In this document: piece by piece, positions 1 to 10,775 of the stretch
Numbering within the stretch: the first letter of the stretch is position 1
Layout of the letters: each line of letters begins with the position of its first letter
Source: a virus
Virus record (IMG/VR): IMGVR_UViG_3300043410_001823
Coordinates: 1-64,000 of that record
DNA: 64,000 nt
Strand: one strand, 5' to 3'
The notes under the pieces: generated by a model
The model's database searches: none
What the model was told of the DNA's origin: nothing
The model's input: only the letters and a program-made list of their open reading frames with translations
Position numbers and translations under genes: made by a program

Positions 1-28
1 ACCCTAATCACTAGTGGATTAGGTTCTT

Positions 29-99
29 ATCGCATAAGTGTTACGGTAGCACAACGGCTTCCAAACCCGTTGGACGAGGTTCGATTCCTTGATGCGGTG
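29..99 (+). tRNA. tRNA-Trp(CCA)
   Basis: Cloverleaf: acceptor ATCGCAT/ATGCGGT, loop TTCCAAA, T-loop TTCGATT, discriminator G; C-C mismatch at the base of the anticodon stem. Confidence 0.85.
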
Positions 100-104
100 C
101 AAAC

Positions 105-292
105 AAGACTACGACGGTAGGCTTGGAATATGGCTGAACGAATCTCTTTGTCAGCAAGGGGAGAGTAAAGCATACTGGGGGATTAGCGTCCTGATCTTAG
201 CGGGTCTAACTGGTAGTCGGATGAAAGCGTATATCACATACAATGGTATTGTTGACTTATCCGTGGTGGTAAAAGGCAATCCACCTATTCAC
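105..292 (+). ncRNA. Candidate structured ncRNA following tRNA-Trp
   Basis: Nested helices GACTAC/GTAGTC, CGGTAGGCTT/AAGCATACTG, GGATGA/TTATCC, GGTGG/CCACC; two hairpins with identical TTAGCG loops; the overlapping ORF starts inside the tRNA and has no RBS. Confidence 0.55.
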
Positions 293-296
293 AATT

Positions 297-347
297 AAAA
301 AACTATTGCAGGGGTTCCCTAAGTTGAAGCGAATGCAATAGTTTTTT
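297..347 (+). terminator. 14-bp inverted repeat ending in a T-run (terminator-like)
   Basis: AAAAAACTATTGCA(297-310)/TGCAATAGTTTTTT(334-347) around a 23-nt interior. Confidence 0.5.
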
Positions 348-370
348 TACCTTTTGTAGTATAATTATAT

Positions 371-445
371 GGCAGTGTAGAGCAGTTCGGAGTGCTCGTC
401 AGTCTCATAAACTGAAGGTCATTGGTTCAAATCCAATCACTGCCA
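371..445 (+). tRNA. tRNA-Met(CAT)
   Basis: GGCAGTG/CACTGCC acceptor, loop CTCATAA, initiator-like D arm but no GGG/CCC anticodon stem; TATAAT just upstream. Confidence 0.85.
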
Positions 446-446
446 C

Positions 447-519
447 GCCTTGTTAGCTCAGTGGCCAGAGCATCCGCCTTGTAAGCGGAGGGTCGTCAGT
501 TCAACTCTGACACGAGGCT
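447..519 (+). tRNA. tRNA-Thr(TGT)
   Basis: Cloverleaf, TCCGC-CTTGTAA-GCGGA. Confidence 0.9.
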
Positions 520-520
520 C

Positions 521-635
521 GAAGATATATCTGATGGAGGACTGGGTAGCTTCCAGTAAAGTTGTGGTAGGTTCTAAGACTAATACAATCACTGTGTGCA
601 CACACATTGGACATCTTGGAAGTAAGATATATCTC
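521..635 (+). ncRNA. Candidate multibranch ncRNA between tRNA-Thr and tRNA-Ile
   Basis: Closed by palindromic AGATATATCT at 523-532 and 625-634, with three internal hairpins; no T-loop. Confidence 0.5.
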
Positions 636-637
636 AT

Positions 638-711
638 AGTGGTATAGCTCAATTGGTTAGAGCACTTGTCTGATACACAAGAGGTTTCTGGTTCAATTCC
701 AGATATCACTA
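638..711 (+). tRNA. tRNA-Ile(GAT)
   Basis: Cloverleaf, CTTGT-CTGATAC-ACAAG. Confidence 0.9.
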
Positions 712-712
712 C

Positions 713-742
713 TTGACATACAAAACAAAAGTATGTTATAAT
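713..742 (+). promoter_or_regulatory. Sigma70/SigA-type promoter of the leader plus tRNA operon
   Basis: TTGACA(713-718)-18 nt-TATAAT(737-742), with TG one base upstream of the -10. Confidence 0.85.
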
Positions 743-770
743 TAATTATCGTTATATGAAGGGACGAAAA

Positions 771-833
771 ATGATACAGCATAGCTTGTCTTATCAATCG
801 CAACTGCGTTTATTTTTCGTGCCTAAAATATAA
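771..833 (+). CDS. Leader peptide MIQHSLSYQSQLRLFFVPKI (attenuator uORF)
   Basis: SD-like GAAGGGA upstream, ATG 771, TAA 831-833 overlapping the antiterminator strand; codons mirror the downstream tRNAs; in-frame alternative ATG at 756. Confidence 0.8.
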   Translation: MIQHSLSYQSQLRLFFVPKI

Positions 834-885
834 CGGGATTCACTTTTAATTAAATCCCGTTCTTTGACTAGGACGGGATTTTTTT
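832..885 (+). terminator. Attenuator: antiterminator (832-840/853-861) versus intrinsic terminator (852-863/870-881 plus U-tract)
   Basis: AACGGGATT pairs with AATCCCGTT; AAATCCCGTTCT pairs with AGGACGGGATTT running into TTTT; the shared middle strand makes them mutually exclusive. Confidence 0.85.
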
Positions 886-889
886 ATTT

Positions 890-962
890 GCTATCGTAGC
901 TCAATTGGAAGAGCATGTGTCTGAAGAACACAGGGTTAATGGTTCGATTCCATTCGTTAGCA
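890..962 (+). tRNA. tRNA-Phe(GAA)
   Basis: Cloverleaf, TGTGT-CTGAAGA-ACACA. Confidence 0.9.
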
Positions 963-966
963 CTAA

Positions 967-1039
967 GGACGCATAACTCAATTGGAAGAGTGCTTGCTTT
1001 ACACGCAAGAAGTTGTAGGTTCAAGTCCTACTGTGTCTA
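967..1039 (+). tRNA. tRNA-Val(TAC)
   Basis: Cloverleaf, CTTGC-TTTACAC-GCAAG. Confidence 0.9.
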
Positions 1040-1040
1040 C

Positions 1041-1126
1041 GGAAGATTGGCTGAGTGGTCTAAAGCAATCGGTTGCTAACTGATCGTACGAAAGTACCAT
1101 AGGTTCGAATCCTATATCTTCCGCCA
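1041..1126 (+). tRNA. tRNA-Ser(GCT)
   Basis: Long variable arm, ATCGG-TTGCTAA-CTGAT, encoded CCA. Confidence 0.92.
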
Positions 1127-1127
1127 A

Positions 1128-1199
1128 CCGAATGTAGTGAAATGGTATCACGCCTGTTTTGGGTACAGGAGACTGGGAGTTCGATTCTCTCTATTCGGA
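1128..1199 (+). tRNA. tRNA-Pro(TGG)
   Basis: Cloverleaf, CCTGT-TTTGGGT-ACAGG. Confidence 0.9.
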
Positions 1200-1203
1200 C
1201 GAA

Positions 1204-1288
1204 GGAAGGGCAAACCAATTGGCGATGGTAGCTGTCTTGAAAACAGTCGAGTGTAAAAGCCTTAGGAGTTCGATTCTCCTCCCTTCCG
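1204..1288 (+). tRNA. tRNA-Ser(TGA)
   Basis: Long variable arm, GCTGT-CTTGAAA-ACAGT. Confidence 0.88.
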
Positions 1289-1292
1289 CTAG

Positions 1293-1365
1293 ATCCTCAT
1301 AGCTCAGCGAATAGAGTGTTTGGCTACGAACCAAAAGGTCGCAGGTTTGAATCCTGCTGAGGATA
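1293..1365 (+). tRNA. tRNA-Arg(ACG)
   Basis: Cloverleaf, TTTGG-CTACGAA-CCAAA; T-loop variant TTTGAAT. Confidence 0.85.
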
Positions 1366-1369
1366 CGAA

Positions 1370-1449
1370 GTACCACACGCTTCAAGGTGGAGCAGCGGAC
1401 TGTAAATCCGTCGTCTTAGACATGCTTGGTTCGATTCCAAGGTGGTGCA
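1370..1449 (+). tRNA. tRNA-Tyr(GTA)
   Basis: GCGGA-CTGTAAA-TCCGT, extended variable arm. Confidence 0.88.
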
Positions 1450-1450
1450 C

Positions 1451-1522
1451 GGTGACATTAGCTCAATGGTAGAGCATTCGGTTGTGGTCCGAAGTACGTA
1501 GGTTCGATTCCTACATGTCACA
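1451..1522 (+). tRNA. tRNA-His(GTG)
   Basis: G-1 encoded, TTCGG-TTGTGGT-CCGAA. Confidence 0.88.
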
Positions 1523-1526
1523 CTAA

Positions 1527-1598
1527 TTCTCCTTCGTCCAATCGGTAGGACGCCAGGTTTTGGCCCTGGAAATGTTGGTTCGAACCCAGCGGGAGAAG
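1527..1598 (+). tRNA. tRNA-Gln(TTG)
   Basis: CCAGG-TTTTGGC-CCTGG. Confidence 0.88.
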
Positions 1599-1602
1599 CA
1601 AA

Positions 1603-1675
1603 GCTTCATTAGCCCAACGGAAGAGGCATCGGATTCAAAGCCCGATCAGTATAGGTTCAAATCCTATATGAAGCA
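1603..1675 (+). tRNA. tRNA-Leu(CAA), short variable arm
   Basis: TCGGA-TTCAAAG-CCCGA, Leu-type D arm, A73. Confidence 0.82.
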
Positions 1676-1676
1676 C

Positions 1677-1748
1677 GTCCCTATAGCTCAGTGGTAGAGC
1701 AGCAGACTTTTAATCTGCGGGTCCTTGGTTCGAGACCAAGTGGGGACA
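1677..1748 (+). tRNA. tRNA-Lys(TTT)
   Basis: GCAGA-CTTTTAA-TCTGC. Confidence 0.92.
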
Positions 1749-1749
1749 C

Positions 1750-1823
1750 GCTCCATTAGTCCAATTGGTAGAGGCGCTAGACTTAGAATCTAGATGTTGT
1801 AAGTTCGAGTCTTACATGGAGCA
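1750..1823 (+). tRNA. tRNA-Leu(TAG), short variable arm
   Basis: CTAGA-CTTAGAA-TCTAG. Confidence 0.85.
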
Positions 1824-1852
1824 CAGACTATTTAAATGATATACTTGATTTT

Positions 1853-2482
1853 ATGAAAGATACAATGTTTTTAATGGGTGATTGTCATTTGCGTCCCCTT
1901 AGTCTTGCAGTTTTTAATGTAGCAAATGATTATGATCATGAGTATAGATATAATTTAATTGAAAATGGAGAAATAGAAGCTTTTTTATCTGTTTCTAATC
2001 AAACAAAAATGCTAAATATATATTCAAAGCCAAGCAAAGCATATAGCATTAAATTAGATAATGAAAAGTTTAAAGAATTTAATAGTGATAAGGTGTCAAT
2101 GTTATTTATGTGGGGATACTCTGACATATTTGATTATAAAAAAAATAGAAGCTTAAAGCCAGCCGTAGATAATTATTTAAATCAAATTACATTTAATTTT
2201 AATTTAACAGATATTACTCTTGCATATCCAATAAGAATGTGGAAGTTTTGGAATGGAGAGCAATCTGATATATATGAAGAATGGTGTGATCTTTTAACAT
2301 CAAAAGCTAAAGAGCTAGGATTAAAAAAACCTATGAATATTTTTGATAAAAAATATGATGATATTTTTGCAAACAAAGATAACTACGACCTTGATCATTT
2401 AAAGTGGTGGGTATATTATGACGTTTGGTTTGATATACTTAATAATTTTATAGATTTGCCAAATACCAAAACAATACAATAG
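1853..2482 (+). CDS. Hypothetical SGNH/GDSL-hydrolase-like protein
   Basis: N-terminal FLMGDCH and C-terminal DHL resemble SGNH blocks I and V; similar layout to 7409..8140. Confidence 0.5.
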   Translation: MKDTMFLMGDCHLRPLSLAVFNVANDYDHEYRYNLIENGEIEAFLSVSNQTKMLNIYSKPSKAYSIKLDNEKFKEFNSDKVSMLFMWGYSDIFDYKKNRSLKPAVDNYLNQITFNFNLTDITLAYPIRMWKFWNGEQSDIYEEWCDLLTSKAKELGLKKPMNIFDKKYDDIFANKDNYDLDHLKWWVYYDVWFDILNNFIDLPNTKTIQ

Positions 2483-2497
2483 AATAATTAATAAGAG

Positions 2498-2570
2498 GCC
2501 CTTCTAGCCCAGCGGTAGAGGCGGTGGACTTAAAATCCATACAGCACTGGTTCGAATCCAGTGAGGGGCA
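2498..2570 (+). tRNA. tRNA-Leu(TAA), short variable arm
   Basis: GTGGA-CTTAAAA-TCCAT, T-loop TTCGAAT. Confidence 0.88.
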
Positions 2571-2571
2571 C

Positions 2572-2600
2572 TTGACTTTTTATAACAAACAAAGTAGAAT
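2572..2600 (+). promoter_or_regulatory. Promoter TTGACT-17-TAGAAT
   Basis: Near-consensus boxes; ATG of the next gene lies 6 nt after the -10. Confidence 0.6.
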
Positions 2601-2606
2601 AGAGAT

Positions 2607-3104
2607 ATGCAAACATTCTTACCACACTATAATCTGATCGAGTCTGCAAAAGCTTTAGATAATAAAAGGCTTAATAAACAAATTTTAGAAGGTTATCAGA
2701 TTCTTAAGGTTCTTTCTAATGCTACCCCGTCAGGTGCATGGCGTAACCATCCCGCTGTACTGATGTGGAAAGGTCATGAGTTTTCATTGCGTACATATGT
2801 GCGTAGTATGGCTTTTGAAGCTAAATTTCGTGGCATCAAAACAGAAAACAACATGCGTAACCTAGAAGAATTAGAGGCTCAGTACGGCGATTCGTGGGGC
2901 TCTGGAATGCCACGGTGGTTTACATCCGACGAAATGCTACGTATTACAGCTACGCATAAAGCTCGTTTATACGTTAAAGATCCAGAGTATTATTTTGAGT
3001 TTGCAGAATATGTAAATAGTGAGTATAACAAACCATGTTGTGACGGATGCAATTACTACTGGCCTACTCATAAATTCAAGAATAAGGAGAAAAAAAATGG
3101 ATAA
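2607..3104 (+). CDS. Pyrimidine dimer DNA glycosylase-like protein (MSMEG_6728 type)
   Basis: MQTFLP start, LDNKRLNKQILE, W-x-NHPAVLMW, KDPEYY, YYWP motifs. Confidence 0.8.
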   Translation: MQTFLPHYNLIESAKALDNKRLNKQILEGYQILKVLSNATPSGAWRNHPAVLMWKGHEFSLRTYVRSMAFEAKFRGIKTENNMRNLEELEAQYGDSWGSGMPRWFTSDEMLRITATHKARLYVKDPEYYFEFAEYVNSEYNKPCCDGCNYYWPTHKFKNKEKKNG

Positions 3105-3273
3105 AAGCTTTATGATTAGAAAAATTATTATTGATGCAATGGAAAAAGGTTATCGTGAGTATGCAGAACGTACTGGTCAGGATGCAGAACAACTTATTGC
3201 AGACAATCATAAGGGGCTTTTGGGCTTTGCCGATGATGTAACTACAAAGATTATGTTGGTTATTAATAATTAA
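3097..3273 (+). CDS. Hypothetical protein
   Basis: ORF with AGGAG RBS, overlapping the upstream stop. Confidence 0.7.
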   Translation: MDKSFMIRKIIIDAMEKGYREYAERTGQDAEQLIADNHKGLLGFADDVTTKIMLVINN

Positions 3274-3881
3274 GGCATAAAATAATGAGGATTGTATATA
3301 GCCATATCTTGATACGCATACCTTGTTCCTTTTAAAACGGTATCAGTGTAGTGATCATAATTTTGATGAATTTTAAATATCACTAAATCATTTGGTTCTG
3401 GCTTATACCTTAAAGATTGATCTGGAAAACATATTTCTCCACCTTCAAAATTGCCAAAATATAAGCCAATCTTATAGTGTCCTATAATTCTTCTTCTATT
3501 TTCTGCAAAAAAGCTATCACTAACTTGTAAATCCGATCTTTGTCCTTCTTTTAATCTAACAAAACTAGTGTTTTGAAAGATCCAAAAATTGGGTGATAAA
3601 AAATCAAGAATTGGTTTATGTAAATCAGATTCAATTACATCTGGACTTATTTTATCATCCCAATAAGTACCATGAGGAGTAGGATCGTTCCAATCTTTTT
3701 CACTTAAATTATTGATAATGTCATTATATTTATTGAAAATATTTGCATTTAAAAAATTTTTATATACAAATGCCCATTCTTTTAATTGAATAATATTTTT
3801 ATTGATATGAAAATCAACAAAGCCATCATAAGGTTTATCTTTTTTATCAAATTCTACATACAGATGGTCTCTTGGAGACAT
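3270..3881 (-). CDS. 2OG-Fe(II) oxygenase-like protein
   Basis: LYFGNFEGGEICF...P...H...V..G.RY motif; the first HxD motif appears degenerate. Confidence 0.7.
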   Translation of the reverse strand: MSPRDHLYVEFDKKDKPYDGFVDFHINKNIIQLKEWAFVYKNFLNANIFNKYNDIINNLSEKDWNDPTPHGTYWDDKISPDVIESDLHKPILDFLSPNFWIFQNTSFVRLKEGQRSDLQVSDSFFAENRRRIIGHYKIGLYFGNFEGGEICFPDQSLRYKPEPNDLVIFKIHQNYDHYTDTVLKGTRYAYQDMAIYNPHYFMP

Positions 3882-3926
3882 GTCTTAGCCCCTATTCTAA
3901 ATGCTATTAATGATTATATCATTGGT

Positions 3927-3955
3927 TTGACAGTAGGGGAATATTGATGTATAAT
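3927..3955 (+). promoter_or_regulatory. Promoter TTGACA-17-TATAAT
   Basis: Perfect consensus; a divergent TGATATAAT lies on the - strand at about 3913-3921. Confidence 0.75.
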
Positions 3956-3979
3956 AATATTAGTTATAGGTAGGAGATT

Positions 3980-4798
3980 GTGGTGGAAAAAATAGTAGTT
4001 GCCCCTCAAATTGTTATATACAGGGGAATATTTAAAGACAGCTCAGGATTAATCAATACACTGTCTCAGGACAACCCAAACTCTTTGTTTTCTCCTATGC
4101 GAAAATGGTATGAGCAGGGATTGCGTAAAGAGGCAGAAATGACTGACTCGTTATACTCTAAAGATATTTTAGATCCATTTGCTTTGATAGAACAAAATTA
4201 TTTAAAAGAATTTATGGATATTGTTCATTTTATTCAAAAAGATTATTTTAATCAGTTTTCAGGAACTAACGGCATATGGCCAGATTTTATAGAAGACTGG
4301 GATCAACTAACAAACCCAAAGTCATTACTGTACGTAGATTTTTTTAAATATGATTATACTAAAATAAGCAATAATGAAACAACTGGTATCTTGATGGACT
4401 ATCATGTTGATGAATTCTTGATGCCAAACGATAAAAAATCTAAGCGCCATGTAATTACTATTAATCTATATCTTAATGATGATTATTCTGGTGGAGAAAT
4501 TTGTGCTTATGATTCAGTGTCTAACAAGATTTATTCTTTCAAGCCATCTCCTGGCGATATAGTAGTTATGCCATCCTTAGATCCTTTTTATCACGCTGTA
4601 AACAACACGTATAATGCGGATAGATATTTTTTAAGAACATTTATTGATTATGATTTAGTTCAAAAAGATACATACAGCAAAGAAGAGTTAGACGGTATGG
4701 TTGATGGTATGGACAAAGTCGAACAAGACTATGTAAAGAGTCACCTTCAAAGTATTAAACTAATGCTCAACAATGGAATAGAGGTAAGACATGTATAA
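3980..4798 (+). CDS. 2OG-Fe(II) oxygenase, prolyl-4-hydroxylase-like
   Basis: HVD...NLYLNDDYSGGEI...YHAV...RY. Confidence 0.85.
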   Translation: MVEKIVVAPQIVIYRGIFKDSSGLINTLSQDNPNSLFSPMRKWYEQGLRKEAEMTDSLYSKDILDPFALIEQNYLKEFMDIVHFIQKDYFNQFSGTNGIWPDFIEDWDQLTNPKSLLYVDFFKYDYTKISNNETTGILMDYHVDEFLMPNDKKSKRHVITINLYLNDDYSGGEICAYDSVSNKIYSFKPSPGDIVVMPSLDPFYHAVNNTYNADRYFLRTFIDYDLVQKDTYSKEELDGMVDGMDKVEQDYVKSHLQSIKLMLNNGIEVRHV

Positions 4799-5489
4799 CA
4801 TAGATGCTTATGTAGGTAACCCTAACAAAAAATCTGCTCAGATTAAACAGCTTCCTCTGAAGCGTGACTGGATTCATTCAACCACCTATAATTGTTTCCC
4901 CGTTGGCTTTGCAAATACATTTGGGTATGGGGTATATTTTGATGAAGATATCTCTTTTATATGGGATGGAGATGTTGCTAATCCAGCCAAAGCAGTGCTA
5001 GGTAAAGACTATGTTTGGGAAGGACGTGGAGAGGGCACTGTTAGTTTTGTTACAAACTTAGTATTTAAGTCAGATCCAGATGTTAGTCTTATTACCTTGC
5101 CAGTGCCAAATCACTTTATACAGGGTGCATCCGTGATTACGACAATTCTGTCTACATCATTTTTTACTTCAGAGTTTTCTATTGTTCTAAAGATTGATGA
5201 AAATTTTGCAGGGAAAGAAATAACAATTCCTGCTGGAACACCAGTAGCTTGCATCCTTCCAATATCTATTGCACAATTCAATAACTCTACTATAAATATA
5301 AAGCCTGGCCCATTTCCTTTTGAAAGAACTCATGATCGTGATGATTATATTAAAGCCATTAAAGATTTTATGGCAAAGGGAATCAATCCTAGATTCTACA
5401 AAAAGGGTATTGACGAAAAGGGAAACAAAATTGGATCCCATGAAGTTGACAAGTTTGTATTGAATGTACTTGACAAAAGAACTGAATAG
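4791..5489 (+). CDS. DUF6065-like protein
   Basis: RDWI...YNCFPVGFANTFG and GTPVACILP motifs; this family is often found beside phage oxygenases. Confidence 0.6.
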   Translation: MYNIDAYVGNPNKKSAQIKQLPLKRDWIHSTTYNCFPVGFANTFGYGVYFDEDISFIWDGDVANPAKAVLGKDYVWEGRGEGTVSFVTNLVFKSDPDVSLITLPVPNHFIQGASVITTILSTSFFTSEFSIVLKIDENFAGKEITIPAGTPVACILPISIAQFNNSTINIKPGPFPFERTHDRDDYIKAIKDFMAKGINPRFYKKGIDEKGNKIGSHEVDKFVLNVLDKRTE

Positions 5490-5499
5490 GGTATATAAT
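5470..5499 (+). promoter_or_regulatory. Promoter TTGACA-18-TATAAT
   Basis: Perfect hexamers upstream of a micro-ORF chain. Confidence 0.75.
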
Positions 5500-5527
5500 T
5501 TAAGTTATTACTAATAAGGGGTAGAAA

Positions 5528-5599
5528 ATGTATATTGATTTAGTACAAAGCTTTGCTATCATTTTTCTTGGTTTAGCTATTTTAAAGGGGCAGCAGTGA
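5528..5599 (+). CDS. 23-aa hydrophobic microprotein
   Basis: AAGGGGG RBS; MYIDLVQSFAIIFLGLAILKGQQ; GTGA overlap with the next ORF. Confidence 0.55.
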   Translation: MYIDLVQSFAIIFLGLAILKGQQ

Positions 5600-5721
5600 T
5601 TAAATGTAATATTTGTAACGAAGATAATCTTCCTCCAGATCACTTCATTAGCATCCTGCACATGCAAAAACAAGTTGAGTATGAACGTGAAAAGATTAAG
5701 GAACTAGATAGCAATGCTTAA
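5596..5721 (+). CDS. 41-aa CxxC/His microprotein
   Basis: GTG start after AAGGGG; CNIC...H...H. Confidence 0.55.
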   Translation: MIKCNICNEDNLPPDHFISILHMQKQVEYEREKIKELDSNA

Positions 5722-5830
5722 ATTCTTATGGGGTATGTTTTTTGGTTATATTATTGCTTCTATTGAAGTATCTATATGGCTTATTAAAAAAGGTTACCGC
5801 TCTACCTTGGAGGTTCCAGACAATGATTGA
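5714..5830 (+). CDS. 38-aa membrane microprotein
   Basis: AAGGA RBS; MLKFLWGMFFGYIIASIEVSIWLIKKG... Confidence 0.55.
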   Translation: MLKFLWGMFFGYIIASIEVSIWLIKKGYRSTLEVPDND

Positions 5831-5909
5831 TCCACTTTGGCTTATTGCTGCTTTCTTTTGTGGTTGGTTTGTTTCTTATATGCAGAATAAAGATTATGAC
5901 AAACATTGA
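5823..5909 (+). CDS. 28-aa membrane microprotein
   Basis: GGAGG RBS; MIDPLWLIAAFFCGWFVSYMQNKDYDKH. Confidence 0.55.
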   Translation: MIDPLWLIAAFFCGWFVSYMQNKDYDKH

Positions 5910-6243
5910 AAAAATAACTAAACTTGCCGAAAAATGGTATATATATGTTAATCTAGACCATCACAAGTCTCGTGATTGTATCTGGAGTATTGACATTAGT
6001 TATTCCTACGGTGAAAAGCCTAAATATTATGCTTATCACAATGGATATATTCTTGATGATTGGAGAAGTCCAGAGTGTGATACACTGGAAGACGCTGAAG
6101 CTTGGATGATAAATAAACTTGAGCGTGAACTAAAACTAGCTCACGAGCATTTGCTTGATGTTATTAATGGACCAGCTGATGAAATATGGTTTGACCAAGA
6201 CCGTGCAAAAGAAATTATAAAGGAGATATTTGATGAATCTTGA
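5896..6243 (+). CDS. Hypothetical protein
   Basis: ORF; start reassigned to ATG 5896. Confidence 0.7.
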   Translation: MTNIEKITKLAEKWYIYVNLDHHKSRDCIWSIDISYSYGEKPKYYAYHNGYILDDWRSPECDTLEDAEAWMINKLERELKLAHEHLLDVINGPADEIWFDQDRAKEIIKEIFDES

Positions 6244-6463
6244 TGATTTAACTGATGAACAAAAAGAAGATGTTATGAATCTTATTGTAATGACTGTTAA
6301 GGAAATTCGTGAACAGATTGATCAAGATATCTTATTTACCCAGCAAATATGGGAGCGTAAGGGTTTTGTAAAAAGTCGTAGAACACGCAAGGCTTTTGAG
6401 GCTTGTCGAATGATTGTACAAGGAAAGAACGAAGTCTATGATGAGTTTTCAAGCGGAGAGTAA
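6233..6463 (+). CDS. Hypothetical protein
   Basis: ORF with AGGAG RBS. Confidence 0.7.
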   Translation: MNLDDLTDEQKEDVMNLIVMTVKEIREQIDQDILFTQQIWERKGFVKSRRTRKAFEACRMIVQGKNEVYDEFSSGE

Positions 6464-6917
6464 AAAGGTTGGAGACGAGTTTGAGGCACTTGTTTATCAA
6501 GATTTACAGCGCCGTGGTTTTGATGTTATAGATAAAGACTTTTATTTAGCTGGCACTGGATGTGAAGTTGATTTTAGGGCACATGGAGAACGTTTTGAAT
6601 ATGTTGAATGTAAAGGTGGTAATGAAGGGGTTGGCAAACGTCCTGGAGCTAAACGAACAGACAATGTAAAAAAAGCTATTGCAAACGGGGCTCTAATTAA
6701 AAGCATTCATGATTTATATTATGTTGTTTATTTCAGTGCCAAAGCAGATGTTGGATCTTACTCAGATGAAATGATTAAAACTGCTTTAAAATATAAAATT
6801 ATTGATGAGGTTAGATATTTGGAACAGACTCCAGAAAAAACTATTAGCGATATAATTAAAGAACTAAAAGAAACTAATCCTGAAATGTTTATTGCTTTGG
6901 AAGAAAACAATGGCTGA
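6438..6917 (+). CDS. PD-(D/E)XK nuclease-like protein
   Basis: GDEFE...EVDF...YVECKG motif. Confidence 0.7.
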   Translation: MMSFQAESKKVGDEFEALVYQDLQRRGFDVIDKDFYLAGTGCEVDFRAHGERFEYVECKGGNEGVGKRPGAKRTDNVKKAIANGALIKSIHDLYYVVYFSAKADVGSYSDEMIKTALKYKIIDEVRYLEQTPEKTISDIIKELKETNPEMFIALEENNG

Positions 6918-7182
6918 TCCAAATCAAACCCCTGGTCCAGAACGTTTTCACTGGGCTTGTCCATGTGCTGGTTGTACAAAATCAGTTAAGTATGAGCGTG
7001 AGCAACTCATTGATTTATTTGAACAGCACAAAAAAGAATATTTAATATATCGTGGAGGTTCATTTAATGAAGATGGAACATTATTTTGGGCAAAAGATGA
7101 TGCTATGGCATATGCAGAAGGCATTGATGCTGTTATAGAAATTATAAAATCAAGAATACCTAAGCCTAAAAAGCGAAATTAA
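6910..7182 (+). CDS. Hypothetical protein
   Basis: ORF with CPCAGC motif. Confidence 0.65.
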   Translation: MADPNQTPGPERFHWACPCAGCTKSVKYEREQLIDLFEQHKKEYLIYRGGSFNEDGTLFWAKDDAMAYAEGIDAVIEIIKSRIPKPKKRN

Positions 7183-7213
7183 AAAACTGATATAATGATA
7201 AAAAGGGGACTTT

Positions 7214-7396
7214 ATGAGCATTTATCGTGTTTTTAATAAAGCAGTAGTTTTAACAGTAAAAACCAAAAGACCTGAAAAATGGTTGCTCGTTGATCGTGAA
7301 ACTGGTGAGGTTTACCAAGGTAGTCCAAATGGATGGTGGGATAAGATGAAGCCATACATTAAAGATGAAGATGATAATGACCAAAGATTGTTCTGA
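7214..7396 (+). CDS. Hypothetical protein
   Basis: TGATATAAT promoter motif and AAGGGG RBS upstream. Confidence 0.65.
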   Translation: MSIYRVFNKAVVLTVKTKRPEKWLLVDRETGEVYQGSPNGWWDKMKPYIKDEDDNDQRLF

Positions 7397-7408
7397 TAGG
7401 AGACTAAG

Positions 7409-8140
7409 ATGATCTTAATTGTTGGTGATAGCCATGTTATCAGAATGCGTAAAACATTGAATGGTGACAAAAGAATTAAAGAGTGTGCTTGGTATGGAGA
7501 TAAAACCCCACCAGCTGACTATGTAAAGCCAGAGTGTCCCGAAGAGCACATACTATCCTCTGGTAATTTTCCTGAGCCAGTATATTTTGCTTTTCATAAA
7601 GGCAGACATGCTTGGGGTAGTGATAAGCTTATCAATGAAGTGTACCCTTGCATTAAAAAAGTAGTAAAAGATGACACTATTATTTTGCCAGAATTTGGAT
7701 ATATAGATTCTAAAGTTCAATTAGTAAAGCATCAAAACCCTGAAGAAGCAGTAACAAAATACATGGATACGTTTTTAAATGCATTTCCAAATAATAAGAT
7801 TAGGTTTATTGAACCAATTCCCCAGTTTATTAATAATCTAGGTAGTGGTCCAGACATCTACGACTTTAAGGATAGATATCCTATGCATAAAGCTTTTGTT
7901 TATCACCTAAGAAAACAGTCTAAAGAGCGTGGGCTAGAAAAACCTTTCAGCCCTGAAGAAATATTTGGTGTAGATAAGTTCGATGAGTCTTATGAATGTC
8001 ATGAATGTGATTATTGTAAAGAGCCTCAAAGCATTGGTATGAAATGGGATCATCTAAAAGCAGAATATAATAAGCAACTTTTAGATCACATCCTTTCTCA
8101 TTATTTTGAACTTGACAAAATCGACTATAGATCTGTATAA
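7409..8140 (+). CDS. SGNH/GDSL-hydrolase-like protein
   Basis: ILIVGDSH, FGYID and WDHL motifs. Confidence 0.6.
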   Translation: MILIVGDSHVIRMRKTLNGDKRIKECAWYGDKTPPADYVKPECPEEHILSSGNFPEPVYFAFHKGRHAWGSDKLINEVYPCIKKVVKDDTIILPEFGYIDSKVQLVKHQNPEEAVTKYMDTFLNAFPNNKIRFIEPIPQFINNLGSGPDIYDFKDRYPMHKAFVYHLRKQSKERGLEKPFSPEEIFGVDKFDESYECHECDYCKEPQSIGMKWDHLKAEYNKQLLDHILSHYFELDKIDYRSV

Positions 8141-8141
8141 T
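8112..8141 (+). promoter_or_regulatory. Promoter TTGACA-18-TATAAT
   Basis: Perfect hexamers just before the tRNA at 8150. Confidence 0.75.
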
Positions 8142-8149
8142 ATTCAAAT

Positions 8150-8223
8150 GGAGCAATAGCCAAGTTGGTCAAGGCCCCGAACTCATAATTCGGTTATCGT
8201 AGGTTCAAGTCCTACTTGCTCTA
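8150..8223 (+). tRNA. tRNA with CAT anticodon, probably Ile2 (lysidine), or Met
   Basis: CCGAA-CTCATAA-TTCGG cloverleaf; Ile2 versus Met identity is an inference. Confidence 0.8.
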
Positions 8224-8264
8224 CAATGGCTTTTGCCATTTTTGTATACAAACAAGGAGAAAAA

Positions 8265-8801
8265 ATGAAAACAGTAGGGGATAAATTAGGAAACTTTGCT
8301 GTCATGGGGGTAAAGCCTGGAGCTTTAACTTATGATGATAGCTCGTTTGAAACAATTACTCAAGATTCTTTTGCAGGTAAGTGGAAGATTATTGCATTCT
8401 ATCCAAAGGACTTTACTTTTGTATGTCCTACAGAGATTGTTGCGTATGACGCTCTTGTAAATGATTTTAATGATAGAGATGCAGTTCTTATGACAGGTTC
8501 TGTAGATAATGAATTTTGTAAGATTGCATGGCGTAATGCACACGAAGATCTAAAGAAAACAAATTCTTGGTCTTTTGCAGACACCGCTCATCAACTTGCA
8601 AATGAATTGGGTGTTCATCATCCATCTGGAGTTACATACAGAGCAACATTTATTATTGATCCAGAAAACGTAATTCAGCACGTTACTGTAAATAATCTAG
8701 ATGTCGGACGTAATGCAGATGAAGCACTTCGTATTCTTGATGCATTGCAGACTGGTGAGCTTTGTGCATGCAATCGTCCACTTGGTGGAGATACGCTGTA
8801 A
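8265..8801 (+). CDS. ahpC: Peroxiredoxin AhpC
   Basis: FYPKDFTFVCPTE, GRNADEALR, LCAC. Confidence 0.95.
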   Translation: MKTVGDKLGNFAVMGVKPGALTYDDSSFETITQDSFAGKWKIIAFYPKDFTFVCPTEIVAYDALVNDFNDRDAVLMTGSVDNEFCKIAWRNAHEDLKKTNSWSFADTAHQLANELGVHHPSGVTYRATFIIDPENVIQHVTVNNLDVGRNADEALRILDALQTGELCACNRPLGGDTL

Positions 8802-8998
8802 TGGCAACTGGTGAATGGATCGTTTTGAAGGGGGAGAATTCTCACAAGTGTTCTCTTCCAGATTTTGTAGAAAATAAACCATATAGCACTATGCTTCAAA
8901 AAAGACATGCTGGATCGGTATGGAAGTGTGAGTGTAATTTAATGTATGAGTGGTCAGGTAAAAAATGGAGGGATGTAGATTATGCAATGGGTAGATAG
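8801..8998 (+). CDS. Hypothetical Cys-containing protein
   Basis: TAATG coupling to ahpC; HKC...WKCEC. Confidence 0.6.
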   Translation: MATGEWIVLKGENSHKCSLPDFVENKPYSTMLQKRHAGSVWKCECNLMYEWSGKKWRDVDYAMGR

Positions 8999-9494
8999 TT
9001 TAAAAGAATCACTACCAGAGTATGCAAAAGATATCAAGCTAAATCTTGATGCTGTAATTAATCGCAGCACTTTTGATCCAGATTACGCATCTGCGCTTGC
9101 ACTTGCAGCATCTATGCAAACAGGAAATGGAAAGCTTGTTGCTTTTATTGCAGCAGGAATTACAGATGAGGTTGAAAAGAATGCAGCAATGACTGCAGGA
9201 ACTTTGATGGCTCAAAATAATGTTTGGTATCCATACTTAGAAATGCTTGGAGATCCAAATGTTAGTGGCTTGCCAGCACAGTTACGAATGAATGCAATTG
9301 CTTCACACGGTGGAACAACAAAGGCTAAGTTTGAATCTTATGCTCTTATTGCTTCTATTATTGGTAAGTGTCATTTCTGTGTGACTGGTCATGCCGATAC
9401 CCTGCGTTCTGAGGGTTATACAGCCGAACAACTTAGAGATCTTGGACGCATTGCAGCAACTGTAAATGCTTTATCTAAGGTTTTATCCAATTAA
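8982..9494 (+). CDS. ahpD: Alkylhydroperoxidase AhpD
   Basis: LPEYAKDIKLNL, MAQNNVWY, CHFCVTGH. Confidence 0.93.
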   Translation: MQWVDSLKESLPEYAKDIKLNLDAVINRSTFDPDYASALALAASMQTGNGKLVAFIAAGITDEVEKNAAMTAGTLMAQNNVWYPYLEMLGDPNVSGLPAQLRMNAIASHGGTTKAKFESYALIASIIGKCHFCVTGHADTLRSEGYTAEQLRDLGRIAATVNALSKVLSN

Positions 9495-9530
9495 CAACCT
9501 ATCCTGGGTACGATATTAAACTACCCACTT

Positions 9531-9604
9531 GCCCCTATAGCTCAGCGGATAGAGCAGCAGGTTTCTACCCTGCGTTGTCGGAGGTTCGATTCCTTCTAGG
9601 GGCG
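9531..9604 (+). tRNA. tRNA-Arg(TCT)
   Basis: GCAGG-TTTCTAC-CCTGC cloverleaf. Confidence 0.88.
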
Positions 9605-9629
9605 CTTAACTTTCTGGTATAATCTTTAT

Positions 9630-10082
9630 ATGAGCGATTTAATTTCTACACTAAAGACACTGCTTGGTAGCACTGTCGCAATTAAATTTAAGGCACAAGG
9701 GTACCATTGGAATTGTGAAACAGATGATTTTCCACAATGGCATGATAAGTTTGGTGCAATTTATGAATCATTAGAAGACCCTATTGATGGGTTGGCAGAG
9801 TGGATCCGTATGCTTGGTGATTATGCTCCATTTAAGCTATCACGTTTTGCATCATTAAGTACAATTCCAGAAACAGAAATTTCATCTGATCCAGAGATGA
9901 TGGCTGCTGATCTATTAAAAGACCATATCGCTTCTGTAGAAGCTTTCAAAGCAGCATGTATTGCAGCTGGAGAAGCTGGAGAAAAAGGTTTAGAGAATTT
10001 CCTTGCAGATTGCATGACAACTCATCAAAAGTGGGCTTGGCAACTTCGTGCATCTACAACAGATATCGAATCTGGTGAATAA
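9630..10082 (+). CDS. dps: Dps / ferritin-like DNA protection protein
   Basis: HWN...F..WH..F...Y...D.LAE.IR and H.K.AWQL. Confidence 0.9.
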   Translation: MSDLISTLKTLLGSTVAIKFKAQGYHWNCETDDFPQWHDKFGAIYESLEDPIDGLAEWIRMLGDYAPFKLSRFASLSTIPETEISSDPEMMAADLLKDHIASVEAFKAACIAAGEAGEKGLENFLADCMTTHQKWAWQLRASTTDIESGE

Positions 10083-10084
10083 TA

Positions 10085-10747
10085 TTATCTTTCATATTTT
10101 GAAGGTGTATTAAATTTATCTTTTAGCAATTTTGTGTAAACTACATCAAAAGTATTATCTTCTGTTGATATAAAATACTCAAATATTTTATCTTCAGGGG
10201 TATTTCTGTATACTTTGACATCTTGAATTTCTCTGCCACCAACATTAAAAATATTTCCATATAAAGACCTTGGGGCATATGATAAATCTACTATTTTTGC
10301 AAGCTTTTCTTTATTCATTTTAATAGGGGTATGAATGTCATAATTAAGTGGTTGGTTTATACCCATGGAAATAAGTGCTTTATTTGCCTGGGTCAATACA
10401 CGAAAATACTCTGTTGTACCATGCAAAGATCCATGTAATTCAGCTTTGTCAATTAATAAGCCATCATAGAGATATGGTATATCAGACATTTGTTCAAGAA
10501 TAAAAAAGTCATCATTCATTGCTATAAAATCAGACACTTCTGCTATATTACAAATTGCCTTATAACATTCTGTAATGTTTTTAAACTTGTTTCCAACATT
10601 TTCAACTGGAACAAAATTTCCAACATACCAGTCTGGTTTACCTCCTACGACCCAAATATTGGCATCTAAGACGTTATCAACTACCGATCTAATAGAATAC
10701 CTTAGCTCTTCGTTTTCACCATCACGATTTATATATATAAAATCCAC
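10085..10747 (-). CDS. Stealth-like / glycosyl-phosphotransferase-like protein
   Basis: EELRYSIRSV and FIAMNDDFF motifs. Confidence 0.6.
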   Translation of the reverse strand: MDFIYINRDGENEELRYSIRSVVDNVLDANIWVVGGKPDWYVGNFVPVENVGNKFKNITECYKAICNIAEVSDFIAMNDDFFILEQMSDIPYLYDGLLIDKAELHGSLHGTTEYFRVLTQANKALISMGINQPLNYDIHTPIKMNKEKLAKIVDLSYAPRSLYGNIFNVGGREIQDVKVYRNTPEDKIFEYFISTEDNTFDVVYTKLLKDKFNTPSKYER

Positions 10748-10775
10748 ATAACTATTTTAGCAGATGGTATAATTA

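What the first reader, a model, noticed from the sequence alone, without database searches (positions are those of the whole stretch)
771..2570. Leader codons are a checklist of the downstream tRNAs: a multi-tRNA depletion sensor
Seen: leader codons are ATG ATA CAG CAT AGC TTG TCT TAT CAA TCG CAA CTG CGT TTA TTT TTC GTG CCT AAA ATA TAA. Downstream tRNAs and their matching codons: Phe-GAA (TTT, TTC), Val-TAC (GTG), Ser-GCT (AGC), Pro-TGG (CCT, same box), Ser-TGA (TCT, TCG), Arg-ACG (CGT), Tyr-GTA (TAT), His-GTG (CAT), Gln-TTG (CAG, CAA x2), Leu-CAA (TTG), Lys-TTT (AAA), Leu-TAG (CTG), Leu-TAA (TTA). All 13 tRNAs are represented, down to the isoacceptor level for the three Leu and two Ser tRNAs. 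17 of 19 non-start codons fall in their codon boxes, which cover 34 of the 61 sense codons. The other two are ATA, and a CAT-anticodon, Ile2-like tRNA sits at 8150. The leader has no Ala, Cys, Asp, Glu, Gly, Asn, Thr, Trp or AGR codons. Classical leaders repeat one amino acid, whereas this one samples each tRNA about once. Inference: it is an OR-gate detecting loss of any listed host tRNA, for example through anticodon nucleases (PrrC, RloC, VapC, PARIS AriB type) or starvation, and it induces replacements. That would make it an inducible counter-defence circuit. Stalls at the last two or three codons may be too close to strand A to antiterminate.
Basis: partly seen in the sequence, partly recalled or inferred. 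Interest (0 to 1): 0.92.

Follow-up and report, generated by a model that had tools for sequence, protein, structure and literature searches.

The report
Codon-checklist attenuator before phage tRNAs
A freshwater phage puts a 20-codon test gene, spelled with at least one codon for each of the 13 tRNA genes behind it and joined to a switchable transcription stop, in front of those genes, so it probably makes these tRNAs only when ribosomes read those codons slowly.

Summary
Exact chance is 3.7e-6. It is the only one of 67,067 stop-free 19-codon windows in the genome to do this.

The anatomy is that of a classical leader-peptide attenuator: a 12/12 promoter, a Shine-Dalgarno-like site, an antiterminator strand overlapping the stop codon, a terminator, and the first tRNA 5 nt after the T-run.

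Six homologous leaders in uncultured phages keep the match while the peptide diverges. Codons appear or vanish as tRNAs cross the leader boundary: Cys; Thr, Trp, Ile; Lys, Leu; Tyr, Leu-TAG. Third-position substitutions dominate, which argues for translation.

Best reading (0.7): a ribosome-mediated attenuator acting as a multi-tRNA supply sensor. The proposed trigger by host defence is untested. There is no expression evidence, and some leader codons lie outside the set.

I found no paper describing this (seven searches). Earlier unchecked notes of this scan describe the same kind of element on other DNA, in at least 61 genomes.

The parts
713..742 (+). Sigma-70-type promoter: TTGACA, 18-nt spacer, TATAAT, with TG at 734-735 (extended -10)
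   Evidence: 12 of 12 hexamer matches with TG before the second hexamer. L156 and L009 show the same TTGACA-17-TGnTATTAT arrangement at the same place after tRNA-Ile-GAT (read from the sequences).
749..770 (+). 5' untranslated leader (strand 1) with the Shine-Dalgarno-like GAAGGGA at 758-764, 6 nt before the ATG. It pairs with the 3' part of the ORF.
   Evidence: the MFE fold pairs 749-775 with about 809-836, z = -6.14, and 0 of 200 shuffles fold as well. Analogous helices that sequester this site are predicted in L156 and L009. The transcription start near 749 is inferred from the promoter.
771..833 (+). Leader ORF: 20 codons plus TAA, MIQHSLSYQSQLRLFFVPKI*
   Evidence: It reads 13 of 13 downstream tRNAs and 0 of 8 others, and this is unique in the genome. 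An in-frame ATG at 756 could extend it by 5 codons, but it has no Shine-Dalgarno-like site and is not conserved.
832..840 (+). Strand A of the antiterminator, overlapping the stop codon (831-833)
   Evidence: A pairs with 853-861 (9 bp, dG -10.0 kcal/mol); 0 of 1000 shuffles of the upstream segment sequester strand B as well.
852..863 (+). Strand B, shared by the antiterminator (with A) and the terminator (with C)
870..885 (+). Strand C of the intrinsic terminator (870-881) and the run of 7 T (879-885)
   Evidence: 12-pair stem at 852-881 with a 6-nt loop, followed by a T-run; dG -16.4 kcal/mol. tRNA-Phe starts at 890, which leaves no room for another promoter.
890..1824 (+). Twelve contiguous tRNA genes: Phe-GAA, Val-TAC, Ser-GCT, Pro-TGG, Ser-TGA, Arg-ACG, Tyr-GTA, His-GTG, Gln-TTG, Leu-CAA, Lys-TTT, Leu-TAG
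   Evidence: ARAGORN; Rfam tRNA hits
1853..2482 (+). 209-aa AT-rich ORF inserted into the array. It is not part of the ancestral operon.
   Evidence: no Pfam or PHROG family; contigs of runs X5 and X6 join 1824/1825 directly to 2498; the array of L156 runs without a gap from Leu-TAG through Lys-TTT to Leu-TAA.
2498..2571 (+). tRNA-Leu-TAA, the thirteenth tRNA of the list. It may now have its own weak promoter at 2456-2485.
   Evidence: TTGCCA-18-TAGAAT, 10 of 12.

Best explanation
The element is a ribosome-mediated (leader-peptide) transcription attenuator that gates a phage tRNA operon.

Proposed sequence of events:
1. Transcription starts at the promoter at 713-742. A ribosome loads on the 20-codon leader.
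2. If it translates without delay, it reaches the TAA. There its footprint covers strand A (832-840), so B pairs with C, the terminator forms, and RNA polymerase stops at the T-run 5 nt before tRNA-Phe.
3. If it stalls earlier, because the charged tRNA for one of the leader's codons is scarce, A stays free and pairs with B as B emerges. The terminator cannot form, and polymerase reads on into the 12 (ancestrally 13) tRNA genes.

The leader holds at least one codon for every tRNA of the operon and none for the phage's other tRNAs. It therefore works as an OR-gate over exactly the operon's products, giving product feedback on tRNA supply.

Shown: the anatomy, the codon/tRNA match, its co-variation among homologues, and coding-type substitution.
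Inferred: the transcription start, translation itself, the kinetic switch, and the direction of regulation.
For: (1) Codon match. All 13 downstream tRNAs are read and 0 of 8 others. Exact P = 3.7e-6. The leader is unique among 67,067 genome windows. The other two frames cover 8 and 5 of 13.

(2) Anatomy.
- The promoter scores 12 of 12 with TG. A Shine-Dalgarno-like GAAGGGA lies 6 nt before the ATG.
- The terminator (dG -16.4) lies 5 nt before the first tRNA. An alternative A:B hairpin (dG -10.0) has its 5' strand overlapping the stop codon.
- All 7 homologues have such an antiterminator (dG -10 to -13) against terminators of -14.3 to -16.4.
- When the segment upstream of B is shuffled, 0-2 of 1000 shuffles per homologue match it.
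- In transcripts cut before strand C, the pairing of B falls from 0.37-0.74 without a ribosome to 0.18-0.27 when the ribosome mask sits on the stop codon. This holds in 5 of 7.
- Strands A, B and C change together in the window, L156 and L009 (sequences).

(3) Homologues. The seven leaders are the window, L156, L009, L159, L167, L191 and L174. They read 13/13, 13/13, 14/15, 12/12, 12/12, 12/13 and 10/10 of their own downstream tRNAs. With the non-homologous L162 added:
- 101 of 104 downstream tRNAs are read;
- 24 of 67 tRNAs found elsewhere in the same loci are read;
- 30 of 69 cells are read for anticodons that the locus lacks.

(4) Tracking.
- A Cys codon occurs only where tRNA-Cys is downstream.
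- Thr and Trp codons occur in the five leaders whose tRNA-Trp lies downstream; tRNA-Thr is downstream in four of them and 3.4 kb on in L162.
- Lys and TTR codons occur mainly where those tRNAs are downstream.
- In L174, Tyr-GTA and Leu-TAG lie upstream of the leader, and its Tyr and CTN codons are gone.
- Pairing each of 5 representative leaders with its own array gives the single best fit of 120 permutations.

(5) Translation. Among three close leaders, differences fall 6, 2 and 17 on codon positions 1, 2 and 3 (binomial P = 4e-4). 13 of 21 pairwise codon differences are synonymous, against 26% expected.

(6) Order is not conserved. His sits at codon 4, 8 or 11 and Lys at codon 19, 3 or 15+22 in the three closest leaders (peptides). 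So presence is conserved, not peptide order.

(7) Placement of the odd codons. The window's two codons outside the list are codon 2 and the last codon, where a stall should have least effect.
Against: - There is no expression data. No RNA holder was listed, and the contigs laid cannot show RNA ends.
- At equilibrium the full-length leader folds the terminator (P 0.92-0.98) wherever the ribosome mask is placed. The switch must therefore be kinetic, as in trp, and that was not tested.
- In the window itself, the truncated-transcript contrast is weak: 0.59 against 0.56.
- The list is not exclusive. Between 2 and 10 leader codons per leader lie outside the downstream set. These include Gly, Ala and AGT codons in clade II, Asn at codon 2 in 5 of 8 leaders, and GCG in L156, which has no recognised tRNA-Ala.
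- Three downstream tRNAs have no codon: Leu-CAA in L009, Glu-TTC in L191 and Ser-CGA in L162.
- CCT and TCT count only if U34 reads U.
- The Pro and Lys codons (18, 19) lie so close to A that a stall there would partly mask it.
- Host tRNAs also read these codons.
- The seven homologues represent about four independent lineages.
- An out-of-frame ORF in L159 reaches 11 of 12 by chance.
- For the longer clade II leaders, the chance probabilities are only 5e-4 to 1.3e-2.
Confidence: 0.7

Rival explanations
1. The attenuator is the same, but its physiological trigger is host defence. tRNA-cleaving nucleases (PrrC, RloC, VapC or PARIS-AriB type) deplete host tRNAs, ribosomes stall on the leader, and the phage switches on replacement tRNAs. 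This is the first reader's inducible counter-defence circuit, and it is a special case of the best explanation.
For: - The OR-gate geometry would respond to loss of any single listed tRNA.
- Published work shows that phage tRNAs can rescue infection from tRNA-targeting defences. I saw only the search listing and the starts of the abstracts of PMC10264068, PMC11464382 and PMC11555353.
- Lys-TTT, a classic nuclease target (recalled), is in the list.
Against: - Nothing tested here separates this trigger from ordinary supply feedback.
- The host is unknown, because the phage comes from a freshwater metagenome.
- The Lys codon sits at position 19 of 20, where a stall is predicted to be least effective.
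- The list follows operon membership, not any known nuclease target set.
Confidence: 0.15
2. The short ORF is translated, but termination is fixed and leaky. In this reading the region is a small gene or a stable small RNA with its own promoter and terminator. The tRNAs are made by constant read-through, and the codon composition reflects something other than regulation.
For: - At equilibrium the terminator always wins.
- The transcript from 749 to 885 would be a compact, strongly folded RNA of about 137 nt (z = -6.14).
- Small stable RNAs are known in the T4 tRNA region (recalled).
Against: - It does not explain why the codons list exactly the downstream tRNAs, or why the list changes with the array.
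- It does not explain why an antiterminator strand sits on the stop codon in all 7 homologues.
- The peptide sequence is poorly conserved while its composition is kept.
Confidence: 0.1
3. There is no translation. The open frame is accidental within a structured non-coding leader, for example a processing or stability element for the tRNA precursor.
For: The leader region is strongly structured. Parts of the ORF lie in conserved helices, so some codons are constrained by RNA pairing.
Against: - The frame is open in all 7 homologues despite divergence.
- A Shine-Dalgarno-like site lies at a fixed 6-nt spacing in clade I. In clade II the ATG lies 6-7 nt after the -10 box.
- Substitutions have third-position periodicity, 17 of 25.
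- The other frames cover only 8 and 5 of 13 tRNAs.
Confidence: 0.05

Closest known systems
Multivalent leader-peptide attenuators of enterobacterial amino-acid operons (thrL: Thr and Ile; ilvL of ilvGMEDA: Ile, Leu, Val), and the single-amino-acid ones (trpL, hisL, leuL, pheL)
   Same: Both have a promoter-proximal short ORF and a terminator just before the regulated genes. Both have a competing antiterminator whose 5' strand is masked by a ribosome at the stop codon. In both, the regulatory codons match the product of the operon. This comparison is recalled textbook knowledge. For pheL I saw only the search listing and the start of the abstract of PMC3082878.
   Different: - The regulated genes here are tRNAs, not biosynthetic enzymes.
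- The leader lists 13 tRNA species (10 amino acids) about once each, rather than repeating one to three amino acids.
- It resolves isoacceptors (three Leu, two Ser).
- There is no sequence relationship: no Rfam leader family matched 1-12000 at E <= 1.
whiB7 (wblC) uORF attenuator of mycobacteria
   Same: In both, a uORF plus antitermination responds to many different translation defects. According to the abstract of PMC10274678 (read), inhibition of amino-acid biosynthesis genes, tRNAs and tRNA synthetases activates whiB7. The abstract also says the uORF coding sequence decides which amino-acid starvation is sensed.
   Different: whiB7 controls a transcription factor. Its uORF is enriched in alanine and is not matched to a gene list. 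Here the leader's content is matched to the tRNA genes it gates, and it changes with them.
pheST (pheM leader) attenuation and T-box riboswitches
   Same: Both couple expression of translation-supply genes (aminoacyl-tRNA synthetases) to the charging state of a tRNA (recalled).
   Different: The pheM leader senses one amino acid. T-boxes bind one uncharged tRNA directly and need no ribosome. No T-box family matched here. Neither is known to me to control tRNA genes.
Phage-encoded tRNAs as counter-defence or codon compensation
   Same: The gated genes are a phage tRNA array of the kind discussed in PMC10264068, PMC11464382 and PMC11555353 (search listing and starts of abstracts only).
   Different: As far as I saw them, those works concern what the tRNAs do, not how their transcription is controlled. 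My seven searches found no mention of a leader peptide or attenuator for phage tRNA genes.

Membership tests
Leader-peptide (ribosome-mediated) transcription attenuators, as a mechanistic class | A short ORF with a usable start, close behind a promoter | tested here: met
   The promoter scores 12 of 12. The ATG is at 771 with GAAGGGA 6 nt upstream. The ORF is open in 7 of 7 homologues.
Leader-peptide (ribosome-mediated) transcription attenuators, as a mechanistic class | An intrinsic terminator between the leader and the regulated genes | tested here: met
   A 12-bp stem at 852-881 plus 7 T, with tRNA-Phe at 890. dG is -16.4.
Leader-peptide (ribosome-mediated) transcription attenuators, as a mechanistic class | A mutually exclusive antiterminator that a ribosome at the stop codon would mask | tested here: met
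   Strand A (832-840) overlaps the TAA and pairs with B. The pairing is non-random in 7 of 7 homologues, with 0-2 of 1000 shuffles matching it. This was tested in silico only. The equilibrium folds do not switch.
Leader-peptide (ribosome-mediated) transcription attenuators, as a mechanistic class | Leader codons that correspond to the operon's product | tested here: met
   13 of 13 downstream tRNAs are read and 0 of 8 others. P = 3.7e-6.
Leader-peptide (ribosome-mediated) transcription attenuators, as a mechanistic class | Read-through rises when the cognate charged tRNA is scarce | not testable with these tools
   This needs a reporter or an in-vitro coupled assay. No RNA data exist.
Rfam leader families (Trp, His, Leu, Thr, Phe and similar leaders) | A match to the family's covariance model | tested here: not met
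   cmscan of 1-12000 at E <= 1 lists only tRNA-related hits, manA, a Y RNA-like hit and plastid UTR models. There is no leader family.
T-box riboswitch | A match to the T-box model (specifier loop and T-box sequence) | tested here: not met
   There is no T-box hit at E <= 1 in 1-12000.
Codon-checklist leaders before phage tRNA arrays (the class noted earlier by this scan; unpublished as far as searched) | A leader ORF plus switchable terminator at the head of a tRNA block, with codons for the tRNAs of that block | tested here: met
   for this window and six homologues. The earlier notes are unchecked AI notes and are not counted as evidence.

The most novel reading that the evidence does not exclude
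Phage tRNA operons carry programmable multi-input sensors. The leader is a list that evolution rewrites codon by codon whenever a tRNA gene enters or leaves the operon. Each phage therefore measures, in one pass of one ribosome, the supply of exactly the tRNAs it can replace. This supply-sensing circuit doubles as an inducible answer to tRNA-cleaving host defences. If true, reading the leaders would predict the co-regulated tRNA sets, and the host tRNA weaknesses, of uncultured phages.
Probability: 0.25. Interest if true: 0.9.

Novelty: new variant of a known kind. Interest (0 to 1): 0.8.

Why it matters
Why phages carry tRNA genes has been argued for decades, and how those genes are controlled is barely studied.

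A leader that lists the operon's own tRNAs would be the first attenuator known to gate tRNA genes. It would also have far more inputs than any described leader: 13 tRNA species, against at most three amino acids in thr or ilv.

It makes a clear prediction. Withholding any one listed tRNA raises read-through, and withholding unlisted ones does not. A defined in-vitro translation system can test this.

The co-variation among homologues shows selection acting on codon presence rather than on peptide sequence, which is an unusual kind of constraint on an ORF.

It also offers a compact, re-writable multi-input sensor design for synthetic biology. And it gives a way to ask whether phage tRNA expression answers codon demand, host shut-off or tRNA-targeting immunity.

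Tried and rejected
Searches for relatives that gave nothing useful:
- GenBank phage searches found no relative of the leader or array: megablast of 600-2700, blastn of 700-900 (only chance hits at E 1e-3 to 8), tblastn of the 639-aa glycosyltransferase, and megablast of L159's array.
- The exact pattern from the leader's 3' end found 67 stretches in viral contigs. Only L009's own contig had tRNAs nearby.
- The tRNA-Thr 42-mer found 7 arrays, with none new carrying a leader.
- The clade II terminator 21-mer found no new member.
- The genome-contig scan found 0 matches.

Gaps that turned out not to hold leaders:
- In L187, L188 and L190 the Glu-to-Trp gaps hold another RNA-like spacer.
- In L164, L166, L169, L171 and L173 the gaps hold small protein genes.
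- L163's contig carries a 100% identical copy of the L162 leader, so it adds nothing.

Folding and expression:
- The equilibrium stall scan showed no switch. I kept it as evidence against a thermodynamic switch and used truncated transcripts instead.
- No RNA holder was listed.
- The laid runs are contigs and say nothing about transcript ends.

Other checks:
- The Ile2 identity of the tRNA at 8150 could not be settled.
- The spacer at 521-637 does not fold better than shuffles (z = -1.4).
- ORF 1853-2482 has no Pfam or PHROG family.
- I considered and dropped a preference for rare wobble codons in the leader. 0 of 5 four-box codons end in A, but by my own rough arithmetic this is about P = 0.04, and the homologues do not share it.
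- L162 and S-PM2 form a second, unrelated leader type. They give only modest statistics (2.5e-4 and 1.3e-2) and mixed tracking, so they are reported only in passing.
- Supplementary files of papers were not consulted.


Full report
WHAT IS THERE

The window is the first 64 kb of a single 85,337-bp phage contig with 37% G+C. The contig encodes a large terminase, a DNA polymerase, a DnaB-like helicase and a UvsX-like recombinase. The runs that hold it are freshwater metagenomes. The whole genome has 21 tRNA genes.

Between tRNA-Ile-GAT (638-712) and tRNA-Phe-GAA (890-963) lie the following, in order:
- a consensus promoter, TTGACA-18-TATAAT, preceded by TG (713-742; 12 of 12);
- a Shine-Dalgarno-like GAAGGGA (758-764);
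- a 20-codon ORF at 771-833, MIQHSLSYQSQLRLFFVPKI*;
- a hairpin whose 5' strand A (832-840) overlaps the TAA and pairs with B (853-861);
- an intrinsic terminator in which B (852-863) pairs with C (870-881), followed by seven T.

tRNA-Phe begins 5 nt after the T-run. The twelve contiguous tRNAs at 890-1824 therefore have no promoter of their own and must be reached by reading through this terminator.

THE OBSERVATION

Wobble rules used. G34 reads C and U. C34 reads G. A34 is taken as inosine and reads U, C and A. U34 reads A and G, plus U in four-codon boxes.

- Under these rules, every one of the 13 downstream tRNAs is read by at least one of the 19 non-start codons. None of the 8 other tRNAs of the genome is read (Trp, two CAT, Thr-TGT, Ile-GAT, Arg-TCT, Thr-GGT, Asn).
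- The exact probability for 19 codons drawn from this genome's codon usage is 3.7e-6, or 2.4e-5 for uniform codons.
- With strict wobble the score is 12 of 13, P = 1.8e-5.
- As a control free of any model, I scored all 67,067 stop-free 19-codon windows in the six frames of the genome. Three reach 13 of 13, and all three are the leader's own frame. 31 reach 12.
- The other two frames over the same span reach 8 and 5.

RELATIVES

No GenBank phage is close. Using exact words from conserved tRNAs as anchors, I found six further leaders in uncultured phage contigs.

Clade I sits after Ile-GAT, as in the window:
- L156, MNKVSYQHLLQAQLRSFVLPRS*;
- L009, MNSCLRSYQLHQAIKPSFFVPKM*. L136, L158 and L160 are the same phage.

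Clade II sits before Arg-ACG:
- L159, MNATLRSYQTTQQGGHFVLPSTVWFIGSVV*;
- L167, MNATLRSYQTTSQRGHFVLPSSVWFIGSVV*;
- L191, MKATLRSYQTTSQRGHFVLPSTVWFIGSVV*;
- L174, MNATSRSLQTTTRGFIVVPSQVWHIGDVA*.

Shared motifs (SYQ, FV.P) show common descent. Rfam added no tRNA to ARAGORN's lists in the clade II loci. In L156 and L009, ARAGORN missed a Ser-TGA gene. I recognised it from its near-identity to the window's gene and from its anticodon loop.

THE MATCH IS KEPT AND RE-ADJUSTED

Each leader reads its own downstream set:

| Leader | Downstream tRNAs read | Not read |
|---|---|---|
| Window | 13 of 13 | none |
| L156 | 13 of 13 | none |
| L009 | 14 of 15 | Leu-CAA |
| L159 | 12 of 12 | none |
| L167 | 12 of 12 | none |
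| L191 | 12 of 13 | Glu-TTC |
| L174 | 10 of 10 | none |

The differences between arrays are mirrored in the leaders (table).
- tRNA-Cys is downstream in L009 alone among the seven, and only L009 has a Cys codon. L159 has tRNA-Cys upstream and no Cys codon.
- tRNA-Thr-TGT, Trp and Ile-GAT are downstream in clade II and upstream in clade I. Thr and Trp codons occur in all four clade II leaders and in none of clade I. ATY codons occur in all of clade II and in one of three clade I leaders.
- Lys-TTT, Leu-CAA and Leu-TAA are downstream only in clade I. Their codons occur there. In clade II they are absent, except for an AAA at codon 2 of L191 and a TTA in L174.
- In L174, Tyr-GTA and Leu-TAG have moved upstream of the leader. 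Its Tyr codon and both CTN codons are replaced.
- L167 has Gln-CTG in place of Gln-TTG and has only CAG codons.

Counts over these seven leaders plus the non-homologous L162 (described under "A second leader type" below):
- downstream tRNAs read: 101 of 104;
- tRNAs elsewhere in the same locus read: 24 of 67;
- cells read for anticodons that the locus lacks: 30 of 69.

I paired five representative leaders (window, L009, L159, L174, L162) with the five arrays in all 120 ways. The true pairing alone gives the lowest mismatch.

These cells are not independent. I count roughly four lineages and four or five gain, loss or move events.

Discordant cases must also be told:
- Ser-GCT is upstream in clade II, yet AGT is kept in three of the four leaders.
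- Gly codons (1-3 per leader) occur in clade II although Gly-TCC is never downstream.
- Ala codons occur in L156 and in clade II without a downstream tRNA-Ala.
- Asn is codon 2 in five of eight leaders.
- Glu-TTC is downstream in L191 without a Glu codon.

Several of these odd codons lie in helices, which may explain them. In clade II, codons 3-6 pair with codons 26-29, with a compensatory change in L174. Others lie at the two ends of the ORF.

IS IT TRANSLATED?

- Among L159, L167 and L191, nucleotide differences fall 6, 2 and 17 on codon positions 1, 2 and 3 (binomial P = 4e-4).
- 13 of 21 pairwise codon differences are synonymous, where about 26% is expected.
- Clade I keeps an AAGG(A/G)A site 6 nt before the ATG.
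- In clade II the ATG lies 6-7 nt after the -10 hexamer in 4 of 4. This suggests a leaderless mRNA, which is an inference.
- The positions of individual amino acids shift between homologues while their presence is kept. This fits selection on codon content rather than on a functional peptide.

IS IT A SWITCH?

- In all seven, a hairpin of -10.0 to -13.0 kcal/mol starts at or just before the stop codon and uses 6-9 nt of the terminator's 5' strand. The terminators are -14.3 to -16.4 kcal/mol.
- Shuffling the segment upstream of B gives as good a B-sequestering fold in 0-2 of 1000 trials per homologue.
- In clade I the three strands change together: the core is ACGGGAUU / AAUCCCGU / ACGGGAUU in the window, ACGGGUU-type in L156 and GCGGG-type in L009.
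- With the transcript cut before strand C, masking a ribosome footprint at the stop codon lowers the pairing of B to 0.18-0.27 in five of seven. In the window it changes little (0.59 to 0.56), and L191 behaves oddly.
- With the full transcript at equilibrium, the terminator always dominates. As in trp, any switch must be kinetic, and I could not test that.

MOST LIKELY MECHANISM (confidence 0.7)

This is a classical ribosome-mediated attenuator in which the "end product" is the set of tRNAs itself.
- A ribosome that runs to the TAA covers A, the terminator forms, and the operon is off.
- A ribosome that waits for a scarce charged tRNA at any of about codons 3-17 leaves A free, the antiterminator forms, and the twelve tRNAs are transcribed. 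Ancestrally there were thirteen.

That Leu-TAA belonged to the operon is shown in two ways. L156 has an uninterrupted array. Contigs from two runs join 1824/1825 directly to 2498. The 209-aa ORF at 1853-2482 is therefore an insertion.

The simplest physiological reading is supply feedback. Fixed leaky termination (0.1) and a non-coding accident (0.05) do not explain the list or its tracking.

COMPARISON WITH WHAT IS KNOWN

- The element works like the thr and ilv multivalent attenuators (recalled).
- In breadth of sensing it resembles the whiB7 uORF (PMC10274678, abstract read).
- It is not a sequence member of any Rfam leader or T-box family.
- Seven full-text searches found no description of a leader peptide or attenuator for phage tRNA genes. 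For the hits I saw only listings and the starts of abstracts. Supplements were closed.
- This scan's own earlier notes describe the same kind of element in at least 61 other genomes. They are unchecked AI notes, and I did not count them as evidence.

What this window adds is a partial list of 13 tRNAs (10 amino acids) whose boundary can be watched moving among homologues.

A SECOND LEADER TYPE

The same design also occurs in an unrelated leader.
- L162 has 33 codons, MSYPMPTKQFSILDCRYWHIEGAPLFADMDRHM*. It reads 15 of 16 downstream tRNAs (P = 2.5e-4).
- Its homologue in the cultured cyanophage S-PM2 reads 12 of 13 (P = 1.3e-2).
- There the statistics are modest and the tracking is mixed.

VERDICT

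- Observation: confirmed.
- Novelty: a new variant of a known kind.
- Interest: 0.8.

Noticed in passing
window 107-295: A manA RNA (Rfam RF01745; 62.6 bits against a gathering score of 55.2) lies between tRNA-Trp and tRNA-Met. It is followed by a hairpin with a T-run (about 301-349) and a TATAAT at 361-366, just before tRNA-Met. The same family scores 62.1 bits in L174 at 4965-5148, again inside the tRNA array.
   Followed up: partly
window 1853-2482: A 209-aa AT-rich ORF with no Pfam or PHROG family sits inside the tRNA array. Relatives lack it: contigs of runs X5 and X6 join 1824/1825 to 2498, and L156 has no gap there. A close relative in run X3 carries a different insert of about 660 nt at the same spot. 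It behaves like a mobile insertion, comparable to the homing endonuclease gene segB in the T4 tRNA cluster (PMC2330249, search listing only).
   Followed up: partly
L162 3080-3300, and L225 2860-3085 (= Synechococcus phage S-PM2, AJ630128.1, within 118235-118775): A second, unrelated leader type sits before cyanomyovirus tRNA arrays. It has a promoter, a 33-34-codon ORF (the two share DCRYWHI) and a strong terminator, followed by about 115-125 nt and then the array. L162 reads 15 of 16 downstream tRNAs and S-PM2 reads 12 of 13. A C-rich stretch inside the ORF is complementary to the terminator's 5' strand, and the two differ together between the two phages. The ORF is not annotated in S-PM2; a minus-strand hypothetical gene is called there instead.
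   Followed up: partly
L224 3247-3375: A 42-codon ORF containing all 20 amino acids lies behind a TTGACT...TATAAT promoter. It is followed by a hairpin with a T-run, about 90 nt before a tRNA block that starts with Gln-TTG. It reads 9 of 9 tRNAs of that block.
   Followed up: no
window 521-637; L157 gap between Thr-TGT and Ile-GAT: A spacer of about 117 nt between tRNA-Thr and tRNA-Ile is bounded by copies of a palindromic GATATATC-containing word. It is also present in L157. There is no Rfam hit, and the fold is no better than shuffles (z = -1.4).
   Followed up: partly
L156 2905-2984; L009 7020-7091: tRNA-sized inserts with acceptor-like and T-arm-like pairings lie inside the gated arrays. 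Neither ARAGORN nor Rfam calls them. In L156 such an insert could be a decayed tRNA, which is of interest because the L156 leader keeps a GCG (Ala) codon without any recognised tRNA-Ala.
   Followed up: no
L159 4001-4111: An out-of-frame ORF overlaps the L159 leader and starts inside the promoter. It reads 11 of 12 downstream tRNAs by chance. This is a caution for coverage statistics on ORFs of 30 or more codons.
   Followed up: no
window 2607-10082: A run of auxiliary genes lies next to the tRNAs: a DenV-like pyrimidine-dimer glycosylase, a 2OG-Fe(II) oxygenase, DUF6065, a peroxiredoxin (AhpC/TSA), a CMD-family protein and a ferritin-like protein. Single tRNAs are interspersed (CAT at 8150 behind its own 12/12 promoter; Arg-TCT at 9531).
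   Followed up: no
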